NCBI GenBank assembly: GCA_022574205.1
Contig: JACZSL010000002.1
Coordinates: forward strand, 11,965 to 75,964
Source: Patescibacteria group bacterium
GTDB lineage: Bacteria; Patescibacteriota; Minisyncoccia; Phycocordibacterales; JACZSL01
DNA length: 64,000 nt
Direction: 5' to 3'
In this document: one piece after another, positions 63,696 to 64,000 of the stretch
How the letters are laid out: the number at the start of each line of letters is the position of its first letter
Position numbering within the stretch: position 1 is the first letter of the stretch
Program-made: the position numbers and the translations under genes
Notes under the pieces: generated by a model
Seen by the model: only the letters and a program-made list of their open reading frames with translations
What the model was told of the DNA's origin: nothing
Database searches by the model: none

Positions 63696-64000
63696 CTAAC
63701 GGAATGGCGGCGGTGGGAATCCCGGCGGCGGTGGGAATCCCGGCGGCGGCGGTGGTAATCTCGGCGGTGGCGGCGGTGGCGGTGGTGGCGGCGGTGGCGG
63801 TGGTGGTGGCGGCGGCGGAAGAAATCCCGGCGGCGGCGGCGGCGGCGGCGGCGGCGGCGGCGGCGGCGGAGGCGGCGGTGACCCCCCCGGGTCTGGGTCT
63901 AGAGACGGTATCAGATTCAAAGGATCTCCACCCAAGAGATTGCTTAAAGCCCCTACAAGATCAGCTCTTTCAAGATATCTCCTCGAACCAAAACCCTCTT
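63696..64000 (-). CDS. C-terminal end (5'-partial in the window) of a protein ending in a ~60-residue polyproline tract
   Basis: The minus-strand frame is open to the window edge: ...ERADLVGALSNLLGGDPLNLIPSLDPDPGGS(P)17GFL(P)24RL(P)5GF(P)4GF(P)4FR*. Confidence 0.55.
   Translation of the reverse strand, partial: EGFGSRRYLERADLVGALSNLLGGDPLNLIPSLDPDPGGSPPPPPPPPPPPPPPPPPGFLPPPPPPPPPPPPPPPPPPPRLPPPPPGFPPPPGFPPPPFR
63711..63890. repeat. (GGC/GGT)n trinucleotide simple-sequence repeat (~180 bp, near 90% GC) encoding the polyproline tract
   Basis: ggcggcggtgg... runs including (ggc)13; strong GC contrast with the AT-rich surroundings. Confidence 0.9.

What the first reader, a model, noticed from the sequence alone, without database searches (positions are those of the whole stretch)
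63696..64000. GC-rich (GGC)n microsatellite encoding a ~60-residue polyproline C-terminal tail, immediately upstream of the secretion cluster
About 180 bp of near-pure GGC/GGT triplets, roughly 90% GC in a low-GC genome, encode S(P)17GFL(P)24RL(P)5GF(P)4GF(P)4FR* at the C-terminus of a protein whose N-terminus lies beyond the window. Polyproline-II stalks are used to span cell walls. Pure triplet tracts of this length are mutable in three-nucleotide steps, so the tail length is likely variable (contingency-like) without frameshifting. The other two frames of the repeat are also open (poly-Ala, poly-Arg), so slippage of ±1 unit preserves the frame. A single-base sequencing error would switch the product.
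Basis: seen in the sequence. Interest (0 to 1): 0.55.

Follow-up and report, generated by a model that had tools for sequence, protein, structure and literature searches.

The report
Variable polyproline tail on secretion-cluster protein
A real CCG triplet repeat gives a secreted protein, encoded next to the type IV secretion genes of an ultra-small Patescibacteria bacterium, a 61-residue almost pure proline tail whose length differs between closely related strains; it is an unusual but not unprecedented kind of variable surface-protein extension.

Summary
The tract is real and far beyond chance. Window 63699-63881 (- strand) encodes S-P17-GFL-P19-RL-P5-GF-P4-GF-P4-FR, then TAG (63696-63698).

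The proline frame is the true one. It stays open to the window end. In a strain 98.2% identical over the next 12 kb, the same frame runs 374 codons and the antisense ORF stops after 48.

The gene belongs to a large uncharacterised family (2,743 cluster representatives; no Pfam, NCBIfam or PDB relative). Members have a signal-peptide-like N-terminus and a helical core, and the gene sits directly upstream of virB6 in Patescibacteria MPF-FATA-like type IV secretion clusters next to dnaA.

The tail is lineage-specific and length-polymorphic: 61 aa here, 38 aa in L005, at least 57 aa of 18-nt GFPPPP units in L007. It is absent from L006 and from 158 other family members.

Most likely it is a slippage-prone, in-frame repeat producing a variable polyproline-II extension on a surface-exposed secretion accessory protein. 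A cell-wall-spanning stalk role is untested and fits poorly, because there is no LPXTG and nothing lies distal to the tail. Interest is moderate.

The parts
63696..63698 (-). Stop codon (TAG) of the tailed gene
   Evidence: The same ...CCA TTC CGT TAG end is found in L005 and L007.
63699..63881 (-). 61-codon tail: S P17 GFL P19 RL P5 GF P4 GF P4 FR. It holds 49 Pro codons (36 CCG, 12 CCA, 1 CCT).
   Evidence: No Pfam or NCBIfam match.
63828..63878 (-). P17 run. 63828-63869 is a perfect (CCG)14 microsatellite, the most slippage-prone element.
63762..63818 (-). P19 run made of mixed CCG and CCA codons. Every departure from CCG is at codon position 3 of the proline frame, so it is synonymous.
63699..63761 (-). 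Units of the 18-nt type: RL-P5, GF-P4, GF-P4, then FR. This is the ancestral GFPPPP minisatellite unit shared with L005 (x4.3) and L007 (x7.8). GFL (63819-63827) and RL (63756-63761) look like degenerate GF(P) unit heads.
   Evidence: TRF period 18, 100% match, 63706-63749.
63882..63998 (-). Last 39 codons of the protein body (EGFGSRRYLERADLVGALSNLLGGDPLNLIPSLDPDPGG). This is the variable C-terminal region, and the ORF runs off the window end.
   Evidence: There is 84% DNA identity to L005 over 115 nt and no match beyond that. Amino-acid identity is 21/40 to L005 and 15/35 to L006.
63657..63695 (-). 39-nt AT-rich spacer between the tail's stop codon and the virB6-like start. It has no Shine-Dalgarno sequence and only a weak hairpin (-7.8 kcal/mol).
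   Evidence: The spacer is conserved in L005 and L007.
61755..63656 (-). VirB6/TrbL-like polytopic membrane protein (633 aa). It is 100% identical to MCH8888966.1 (IID26_00885, Patescibacteria group bacterium).
   Evidence: (homologues carry PF04610).
60297..60731 (-). PrgI (VirB3-like) protein
   Evidence: Pfam PF12666, E=3e-11.
59651..60313 (-). TraC-like / VirB4 N-terminal-like protein (220 aa)
   Evidence: weak PF11130; precomputed PF26593 TraC-like hits.
57557..59401 (-). VirB4-type ATPase (614 aa)
   Evidence: PF19044, E=1.3e-24, plus AAA_10 and DUF87.
55008..55919 (-). Protein with a T4SS pilin-like (VirB2-like) segment
   Evidence: PF18895, E=9e-5, 22.9 bits, below the gathering score of 26.6.

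Best explanation
The tract is a genuine, in-frame coding repeat at the 3' end of a gene. That gene encodes a Sec-exported, mostly helical protein conserved immediately upstream of virB6 in Patescibacteria type IV secretion clusters.

An ancestral 18-nt unit (GGA TTC CCA CCG CCG CCG, encoding GFPPPP) was appended after the family's usual C-terminus (…IPxL…) in this lineage. It has since grown in two ways: by unit duplication (L005, L007) and, in the window strain, by slipped-strand expansion of the CCG triplet inside two units, giving P17 and P19.

The product is a 61-residue tail, which should adopt a polyproline-II conformation. Its length changes in 3-nt or 18-nt steps without breaking the frame, so near-identical strains carry tails of about 38 to 61+ residues. 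That is roughly 11 to 19 nm if fully extended.

The tail sits on an already disordered, hypervariable C-terminal region of an extracellular protein. I infer that it acts as a length-tunable, protease-resistant surface extension or multivalent PPII ligand at the epibiont envelope or host interface, and not as a catalytic or essential part of the secretion machine.

Shown: the sequence, the frame, the homology, the synteny, the between-strain length differences and the lineage restriction. Inferred: slippage as the mechanism, the PPII conformation, export, and the spacer or ligand role.
For: Frame and coding strand:
- The - strand frame is open for 101 codons.
- In L005 (98.2% identical over 12,077 nt downstream) the sense frame is open for 374 codons, and the antisense ORF stops after 48.
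- All 13 non-CCG proline codons differ only at position 3.
- The window/L005 length difference is 69 nt, which is 23 codons.

Family and context:
- A profile of 27 homologues finds 2,743 cluster representatives at E<=1e-3.
- The order [~280 aa]-[family protein]-[VirB6] is seen in L006, L008 and L005. It is followed by PrgI, the TraC-like gene and VirB4, except that L006 has two further small genes between VirB6 and PrgI.
- The N-terminus resembles a Sec signal: MSTLK…GLLLCASVIITLFPSSVYA|DH.
- Distant members carry extracellular domains: GH5 cellulase, Ig-like and F5/8-type-C.
- The AF2 model (pLDDT 71, pTM 0.61) has a confident helical core, and residues 370-479 are low-confidence.

Variation:
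- Tails are 61 aa in the window and 38 aa in L005 (P11 plus 4 GFPPPP units). L007 has at least 57 aa, about 7.8 units, with the contig starting inside the repeat. L006 has none and ends …IPDLGF*.
- None of 158 family members examined has a long Pro tail.

Repeat-driven origin:
- CCG makes up 72% of Pro codons in the 100 window codons of this ORF, but 21% in 26 long ORFs of the window. Those ORFs contain only one PPP motif in 10,626 codons.
Against: - No read-level data were available, so the exact length in this short-read MAG could be mis-assembled, and the within-population variation that defines contingency loci is unproven.
- The protein body could not be recovered from the window's own contig.
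- The family profile does not score the 40 visible non-repeat residues. The link to the family therefore rests on the DNA alignment to L005, the shared IPSLDPDPGGS motif and the …PPPPFR* end, and synteny.
- Orthologues without the tail (L006 and the rest of the family) show it is dispensable for the core function. That fits a neutral by-product equally well.
- A free C-terminal tail with nothing distal to it is not a classical spacer.
- Runs of 17-19 prolines are strongly stalling sequences, so expression may be poor.
- There is no experimental evidence for export, PPII conformation or localisation.
Confidence: 0.6

Rival explanations
1. Functionless by-product. The tail is a selectively neutral, or slightly deleterious, microsatellite/minisatellite expansion tolerated at a disordered C-terminus. 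It is translated but does nothing specific, and its length drifts by slippage.
For: - The tail is absent from L006 and from 158 other family members.
- Its codon usage is atypical for the genome, which indicates a repeat-driven origin.
- The C-terminal region is low-confidence in the model and hypervariable.
- At least one strain type carries a premature TGA that removes the whole C-terminal third.
Against: - The frame is kept in three independent assemblies despite large length changes.
- All variant Pro codons are synonymous, though they may not be independent events.
- The …PPPPFR* end and the GF(P)n unit are retained across lineages whose VirB6 is only 78% identical.
- A C-terminal C-x-x-FPPPP motif recurs in three distant family members.
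- Long proline runs are costly to translate, so neutral persistence is not expected.
Confidence: 0.25
2. Translational throttle. The polyproline run, ending 2 codons before the stop and 39 nt before virB6, stalls ribosomes in an EF-P/YebC-dependent way. This tunes expression of the downstream secretion genes, and repeat length sets the strength. It would be an arrest-peptide-like rheostat.
For: - Consecutive prolines stall ribosomes unless rescued by EF-P or YebC-family factors (PMC11611912, PMC11990639, PMC12234827).
- Known arrest peptides have an N-terminal localisation signal, a C-terminal Pro-containing arrest motif and a same-strand downstream secretion-machinery gene (PMC12992588). The tailed gene has a signal-peptide-like N-terminus, and a polytopic membrane-protein gene 39 nt downstream.
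- A YebC-family ORF lies in the window.
Against: - The gene encodes a large conserved protein (about 480 aa plus tail), not a dedicated leader.
- Orthologous clusters lack the tail.
- There is no Shine-Dalgarno sequence and only a weak hairpin (-7.8 kcal/mol) around the virB6 start that a stalled ribosome could open.
- No expression data exist.
Confidence: 0.08
3. Not a proline tail at all. Either the + strand ORF from ATG 63704 (MAAVGIPAAVGIP…, Ala/Val-rich and signal-like) is the real gene, or the tract is non-coding, or it is an assembly artefact.
For: - The + strand frame from 63704 is also open to the window end.
- A gene caller placed a minus-sense ORF on the truncated L007 contig.
- The source is a short-read MAG in which this gene is split between contigs.
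Against: - In L005 the equivalent antisense ORF stops after 48 codons, while the sense frame runs 374 codons and matches a family of thousands.
- The same tail end occurs in three independent assemblies from different sources: an NCBI MAG, an ENA contig and the window.
- Each homogeneous block is 57 nt or less, which is shorter than typical reads.
Confidence: 0.03
4. Eukaryote-type ligand mimic. The repeated FPPPP units act like the EVH1-binding FPPPP motifs of ActA, zyxin and vinculin, or as another SH3/WW/profilin-type ligand, to engage a host protein.
For: The literal FPPPP motif occurs twice in the window, 4 times in L005 and at least 7 times in L007. A C-terminal FPPPP is present in three distant family members.
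Against: - The motif flanks are Gly, not the acidic residues typical of ActA-type ligands (my own knowledge).
- Cultured Patescibacteria are epibionts of bacteria or archaea (PMC12102498).
- No host information is available.
- The P17 and P19 runs are not motif-like.
Confidence: 0.02

Closest known systems
Proline-rich cell-wall-spanning regions of Gram-positive surface proteins (for example SdrG and other LPXTG proteins)
   Same: A proline-rich, presumably extended segment near the C-terminus of an exported protein of a monoderm-type cell. Such regions are often built from tandem repeats and are length-variable (PMC7616799).
   Different: There is no LPXTG motif, hydrophobic helix or charged tail after it; the protein simply ends in PPPPFR*. 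The runs are homopolymeric (P17, P19) and not mixed Pro-rich repeats. The host protein family is unrelated.
In-frame coding simple-sequence repeats in bacterial surface and host-interaction genes (length-variable repeats, as opposed to frame-shifting contingency loci)
   Same: A perfect (CCG)14 plus an 18-nt minisatellite in an exported, host-interface-associated gene. Repeat number differs between near-identical strains and always in frame.
   Different: A unit of 3 or 18 nt gives length variation, not ON/OFF phase variation. Within-population switching was not shown. A GC-rich CCG repeat in a 40% GC reduced genome is unusual.
Patescibacteria MPF-FATA-like type IV secretion cluster near dnaA (Quinonero-Coronel et al. 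2025, PMC12102498)
   Same: VirB4, a TrsD/TraC-like protein, PrgI/VirB3, VirB6 and a VirB2-like pilin, lying next to jag-yidC-rnpA and dnaA.
   Different: The tailed protein's family is not among the components listed in that paper's text. It has no Pfam, NCBIfam or PDB relative.
Ribosome arrest peptides with C-terminal proline motifs upstream of secretion genes (SecM, MifM, RAPP-type ApdA/ApcA)
   Same: An N-terminal export signal, a stalling-prone proline sequence at the C-terminal end, and a same-strand downstream membrane or secretion gene a few tens of nt away (PMC12992588).
   Different: The protein is large and conserved, not a small leader. The motif is not conserved in orthologues, and there is no start-site-sequestering structure.
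TonB / VirB10 proline-rich rods
   Same: A rigid proline-rich segment associated with an envelope-spanning machine.
   Different: In TonB and VirB10 the Pro-rich region links an N-terminal membrane anchor to a C-terminal globular domain (my own knowledge). Here the proline segment is terminal and there is no homology.

Membership tests
Simple-sequence contingency / length-variable repeat locus | A perfect short tandem repeat long enough for slipped-strand mispairing | tested here: met
   (CCG)14 is perfect at 63828-63869, and there are 18-nt units at 63706-63749.
Simple-sequence contingency / length-variable repeat locus | Repeat number differs between closely related strains | tested here: met
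   The window has 61 aa and L005 has 38 aa, with 98.2% flank identity. L007 has at least 7.8 units of 18 nt. Caveat: all are short-read assemblies.
Simple-sequence contingency / length-variable repeat locus | Repeat number varies within a population or clone at high frequency | not testable with these tools
   No reads are available. Exact-match scans of JGI metagenome contigs found no further alleles.
Simple-sequence contingency / length-variable repeat locus | Slippage switches expression ON/OFF by frameshift or promoter spacing | tested here: not met
   The unit lengths of 3 and 18 nt preserve the frame, and the observed length difference is 69 nt.
Gram-positive proline-rich wall-spanning region (LPXTG proteins) | A proline-rich segment in an exported protein | tested here: met
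   49 of 61 tail residues are Pro. Relatives, and the N-terminal fragment in the same MAG, have a signal-like N-terminus.
Gram-positive proline-rich wall-spanning region (LPXTG proteins) | Followed by LPXTG (or a similar sorting motif), a hydrophobic helix and a basic tail | tested here: not met
   The protein ends …GFPPPPFR*. There is no NCBIfam or Pfam sorting-signal hit.
Ribosome arrest peptide regulating a downstream secretion gene | N-terminal localisation signal plus a C-terminal stalling motif plus a same-strand downstream machinery gene | tested here: met
   Signal-like N-terminus. The polyproline ends 2 codons before the stop. The virB6-like gene starts 39 nt downstream. Stalling itself is inferred from the literature.
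Ribosome arrest peptide regulating a downstream secretion gene | An mRNA structure hiding the downstream start site that a stalled ribosome would open | tested here: inconclusive
   Only a weak hairpin (-7.8 kcal/mol) was found, and this organism uses no Shine-Dalgarno sequence.
Ribosome arrest peptide regulating a downstream secretion gene | The arrest motif is conserved among orthologues, in a small dedicated ORF | tested here: not met
   L006 and 158 family members lack the tail, and the protein body is about 480 aa and conserved.
Patescibacteria MPF-FATA-like T4SS cluster | A VirB4 ATPase with PrgI/VirB3, a TrsD/TraC-like protein and VirB6 nearby | tested here: met
   PF19044, PF12666; PF26593; homologues with PF04610.
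Patescibacteria MPF-FATA-like T4SS cluster | A VirB2-like pilin near virB4 | tested here: inconclusive
   PF18895, E=9e-5, 22.9 bits, below the gathering score of 26.6.
Patescibacteria MPF-FATA-like T4SS cluster | A chromosomal location close to dnaA / rnpA | tested here: met
   rnpA, yidC and jag lie at 51.9-53.7 kb, and the large ORF at 50180-51538 sits beside the GC minimum. L005 shows R3H/KH, 60KD_IMP, Ribonuclease_P and L34. The dnaA identity of 50180-51538 is inferred from position and was not scanned.
EVH1-binding FPPPP ligand (ActA/zyxin type) | An F-P-P-P-P core | tested here: met
   Two copies in the window, 4 in L005 and at least 7 in L007.
EVH1-binding FPPPP ligand (ActA/zyxin type) | Acidic flanks and a eukaryotic host with Ena/VASP-type receptors | tested here: not met
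   The flanks are Gly/Pro. Host identity is not testable here.

The most novel reading that the evidence does not exclude
The polyproline repeat is a heritable, slippage-adjustable translational rheostat. Ribosomes queue on 17-19 consecutive prolines at the very end of the ORF, with rescue depending on EF-P or YebC-type factors. The repeat length therefore sets how many ribosomes reach the stop codon 39 nt before virB6, and so sets the output of the downstream type IV secretion genes that Patescibacteria need for epibiotic growth. This would be a new way of coupling a contingency repeat to operon expression without frameshifting. The same data also leave open a variant reading, in which tail length tunes the reach of a previously unrecognised extracellular T4SS component toward the host surface.
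Probability: 0.08. Interest if true: 0.7.

Novelty: new variant of a known kind. Interest (0 to 1): 0.42.

Why it matters
Patescibacteria depend on host cells, and their type IV secretion genes are reported to be essential for epibiotic growth (PMC12102498). The extracellular parts of that machine are largely unidentified, and that paper detected no adhesins.

This locus matters in two ways:

1. It points to a large uncharacterised protein family (2,743 cluster representatives at E<=1e-3). The gene sits directly upstream of virB6 in every cluster examined here that could be read that far (L005, L006, L008) and, by contig-length matching, probably five more. It is exported and has a hypervariable C-terminus, so it is a candidate host-facing component.

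2. In one lineage that C-terminus has acquired a length-polymorphic, nearly pure polyproline tail encoded by a CCG microsatellite. Such a tract is rare in a 40% GC reduced genome and is demanding for the ribosome. If tail length affects host contact or operon expression, it would be a simple genetic handle on strain-level host specificity in uncultivated bacteria.

There is also a practical point. The repeat and its surroundings break short-read assemblies, so this gene is systematically fragmented or missing in MAG annotations.

Tried and rejected
Recovering the sequence beyond the window:
- Exact-match DNA scans with a 64-nt unique flank found nothing in genome contigs or metagenome contigs.
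- A scan with the conserved 35-nt tail end found nothing.
- A protein-seeded scan of GTDB genomes with VirB6 found no relative.
- An exact-protein look-up of the window's VirB6 and of its identical NCBI copy P0279 returned nothing on record.
- A word-indexed protein search with the 48-aa C-terminal fragment found nothing.
- The full gene of this strain was therefore not recovered. It was reconstructed only by analogy, from L005, L006 and the same-MAG N-terminal fragment P0282.

Identifying the protein family:
- Pfam, NCBIfam and PDB sequence searches, with single sequences and with profiles, found nothing.
- The first AF2 model, from 27 sequences, was too poor to use (pLDDT 56).
- The AFDB library was unavailable.
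- A VirB5-like or VirB8-like identity was considered and is not supported.

The window's own fragment: the family profile does not score its 40 non-repeat residues, because the C-terminal region is too variable.

Regulatory and coding alternatives:
- An arrest-peptide regulatory hairpin was considered, but only a weak structure was found.
- A + strand Ala/Val-rich ORF was considered and rejected from L005.
- C-terminal sorting signals (LPXTG, the IPTL-CTERM type) were considered and rejected, because no helix or basic tail follows and there are no NCBIfam hits.

Other searches:
- A scan of viral contigs for the GFPPPP-GFPPPP DNA unit found nothing.
- Literature searches for polyproline in Patescibacteria found nothing relevant.
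Full report
OBSERVATION

The tract exists exactly where reported. On the - strand, the frame starting at 63998 is open for all 101 codons. It reads …LNLIPSLDPDPGGS-P17-GFL-P19-RL-P5-GF-P4-GF-P4-FR-stop, with TAG at 63696-63698.

- The second proline run is 19 residues, not 24.
- GC is 82% over 63700-63880 and 87% over 63762-63878, not about 90%.

Only 63828-63869 is a perfect microsatellite, (CCG)14. The P19 block mixes CCG and CCA. The stop-proximal part consists of 18-nt GGA-TTC-CCA-CCG-CCG-CCG (GFPPPP) units.

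Chance is excluded:
- (CCG)5 with up to 1 mismatch matches 15 times, all within the tract, against zero in 100 shuffles.
- It is the only trinucleotide repeat of 5 or more units in the 64 kb window.
- Its 180-nt GC of 0.83 compares with a window mean of 0.40, sd 0.05.

WHICH STRAND AND FRAME

Three frames cross the repeat without stops, and two stay open to the window end. One is the proline frame. The other is a + strand ORF from ATG 63704 (MAAVGIPAAVGIP…). Relatives settle the question.

The downstream gene (61755-63656) has a 98% identical homologue, P0001. Its contig, L005 (NCBI GCA_022565145.1), is 98.2% identical to the window over 12,077 nt. In L005:
- The sense frame upstream of virB6 is open for 374 codons. 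It ends …IPSLDPDPGGS-P11-(GFPPPP)4-FR*.
- The antisense ORF stops after 48 codons.

Further support:
- L007 (VirB6 78% identical) starts inside 7.8 copies of the 18-nt unit. It ends …GFPPPGPLPPPPFR*, followed by the same spacer and virB6 start.
- All 13 non-CCG proline codons in the window tail differ only at the third position. They may not be independent events.
- The window/L005 length difference is 69 nt, a multiple of three.

WHAT THE GENE IS

L006 (JGI metagenome 3300022665; VirB6 77% identical) carries the full-length orthologue (479 aa) directly upstream of virB6. A two-sequence profile found 33 homologues. A 27-sequence profile scored against 1.84 billion cluster representatives found 2,743 at E<=1e-3 and 1,356 at E<=1e-10.

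Nothing is known about this family:
- There is no Pfam, NCBIfam or PDB sequence match.
- An AlphaFold model built on 133 sequences has pLDDT 71 and pTM 0.61. It shows an N-terminal hydrophobic helix, a 70-residue helix and a confident helical core to about residue 360. Residues 370-479 are low-confidence.

Evidence that the protein is exported:
- The N-termini look like Sec signal peptides, for example MSTLKIMMNARIQKGSLVLGLLLCASVIITLFPSSVYA|DH. This is by inspection; no predictor was available.
- Distant members fuse the domain to a GH5 cellulase, Ig-like surface domains and F5/8-type-C domains.
- Conserved cysteines are present.

Together these argue for an extracellular protein.

Synteny:
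- The order [~280 aa]-[family protein]-[VirB6/TrbL] holds in L005, L006 and the distant L008. It is followed by PrgI, the TraC-like gene and VirB4, except that L006 has two further small genes between VirB6 and PrgI.

The cluster itself is the Patescibacteria MPF-FATA-like type IV secretion system described in PMC12102498. It comprises VirB4 (PF19044, E=1e-24), PrgI (E=3e-11), a TraC/TrsD-like protein, VirB6 and a weak VirB2-like pilin. It lies beside jag-yidC-rnpA and the probable dnaA/oriC region.

SOURCE

The window's VirB6-like protein is 100% identical to MCH8888966.1 (IID26_00885, 'Patescibacteria group bacterium', a 77,239-nt contig). In the same MAG a partial 166-aa N-terminal fragment of the family, MCH8889133.1, ends another contig. 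The gene therefore appears to be split between contigs in the source assembly. That these two pieces are one gene is inferred, not shown.

Independent short-read assemblies also break between the middle of this gene and the middle of virB6. This is unexplained. It is compatible with strain heterogeneity or poor coverage, and it means the exact repeat length in the window should be treated with caution.

THE TAIL IS LINEAGE-SPECIFIC AND VARIABLE

Tail lengths in the four assemblies:
- Window: 61 aa.
- L005: 38 aa.
- L007: at least 57 aa.
- L006: none. The protein ends …DLIPDLGF*, at the family's usual C-terminus just after an IPxL motif.

Among 158 family members inspected, none has a long proline tail. 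Three distant ones end with C-x-x-FPPPP(P)-x5-6.

Two growth modes are visible:
- Duplication of the 18-nt unit (L005 x4.3, L007 x7.8).
- In the window, expansion of CCG within units. GFL and RL look like degenerate unit heads.

Codon usage points to repeat dynamics and not codon selection. CCG is 72% of Pro codons in the 100 window codons of this ORF, against 21% in 26 long ORFs of the window. Those ORFs contain a single PPP motif in 10,626 codons.

Sequence identity between the window and L005 collapses exactly at the tail. It is 98.2% downstream. It is 84% over the 115 nt just upstream, with no detectable match beyond. At the amino-acid level it is 21/40, of which 11 are the IPSLDPDPGGS junction. 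The tail therefore marks the edge of a hypervariable C-terminal module.

MECHANISM

Shown:
- An in-frame repeat encoding a near-homopolymeric proline tail.
- The tail is on a family member that is exported by all sequence indications.
- The gene is conserved next to virB6.
- Tail length differs among near-identical strains.

Inferred from established knowledge:
- Slipped-strand mispairing generates the 3-nt and 18-nt steps.
- The tail adopts a polyproline-II helix. At about 0.31 nm per residue, the window tail would span up to about 18-19 nm and the L005 tail about 11 nm.
- It acts as a length-tunable extension or multivalent PPII ligand at the envelope or host interface.

The classical 'wall-spanning stalk' does not fit. 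The tail is terminal, it has no LPXTG-type anchor, and nothing lies distal to it.

RIVALS

- Neutral by-product (0.25). This is supported by the dispensability of the tail in orthologues. It is opposed by frame and proline preservation across lineages and by the cost of translating long proline runs.
- Arrest-peptide-like translational throttle (0.08). The layout is suggestive: an export signal, a C-terminal stalling sequence, and a secretion gene 39 nt downstream (compare PMC12992588). However, the protein is large, orthologues lack the motif, and there is no start-sequestering structure.
- Wrong strand or assembly artefact (0.03). This is largely refuted by L005 and L007.
- FPPPP ligand mimicry (0.02). 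Only the literal motif supports it.

COMPARISON AND NOVELTY

The tail works most like the proline-rich repeat regions of Gram-positive surface proteins and like in-frame coding repeats of surface genes. It fails the defining features of two classes:
- LPXTG wall-spanning regions, because it has no sorting signal.
- ON/OFF contingency loci, because its repeat units are multiples of three.

The secretion cluster is a known kind. The tailed protein's family is not among the components discussed in the 2025 survey text and has no annotated relative.

I rate the finding a new variant of a known kind, with moderate interest (0.42). The homopolymeric P17 and P19 runs and the CCG microsatellite in a 40% GC reduced genome are unusual. 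The gene family deserves attention as a candidate extracellular T4SS component. The function of the tail remains inferential, and its exact length needs read-level confirmation.

Noticed in passing
L009:6001-7295 (ENA ERZ23499572 scaffold_564), and P0283: Two assemblies of the same species-level lineage carry an in-frame TGA exactly at the family's conserved Trp (…ELADEVDE*VSANA…). The frame stays open for another 89 codons afterwards. This is either a natural truncation allele that removes the variable C-terminal third and any tail, or a recoding event.
   Followed up: partly
window 63812-64000 versus L005:1-1082: DNA identity between two strains drops abruptly at the tail. It is 98.2% over 12 kb downstream, 84% over 115 nt just upstream, and undetectable beyond. 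This suggests a recombination boundary or a hypervariable C-terminal module.
   Followed up: partly
L001-L004, L005, L009; window 61755-64000: Independent short-read assemblies all end between the middle of the tailed gene and the middle of virB6, at different positions and about 1 kb from the repeat itself. In both NCBI MAGs the tailed gene is split across two contigs. The cause is unexplained.
   Followed up: no
P0187, P0189, P0232 (distant family members): Their C-termini share the motif …AEC-x-x-FPPPP(P)-x5-6-end. A short FPPPP ending therefore recurs in the family outside the lineage with the long tail.
   Followed up: no
window 43878-44408 (+): A YebC/TACO1-family ORF of only 176 aa (usual length about 240 aa) lies directly upstream of ruvC (44412-44936). 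YebC-family proteins are reported to relieve ribosome stalling at polyproline (PMC11990639, PMC12234827). No efp was seen among the window ORFs that were scanned.
   Followed up: partly
window 36092-36236: A perfect 42-nt tandem repeat (x3.5, 100% identical) begins inside or abuts tRNA-Lys (36030-36103, - strand). A related 84-nt period extends to 36271.
   Followed up: no
window 26059-26083: An (AGACGG)x4.2 hexanucleotide repeat would encode eight arginines in a + strand frame. It is the only other homopolymeric amino-acid run of 8 or more in any frame of the window.
   Followed up: no
window, starts of 14 genes (for example 63656, 61745, 59401): No Shine-Dalgarno-like sequence precedes any of the gene starts inspected; the leaders are AT-rich. 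Several cluster genes overlap or abut, for example 55919/55919 and 60297-60313.
   Followed up: no
window 49000-51600: The lowest GC in the window (0.27-0.30) lies at 49-51 kb, next to large - strand ORFs (48859-49962, 50180-51538) and rnpA/yidC/jag. This is the probable dnaN/dnaA-oriC region, about 2-4 kb from the T4SS cluster, as described for Patescibacteria in PMC12102498.
   Followed up: no
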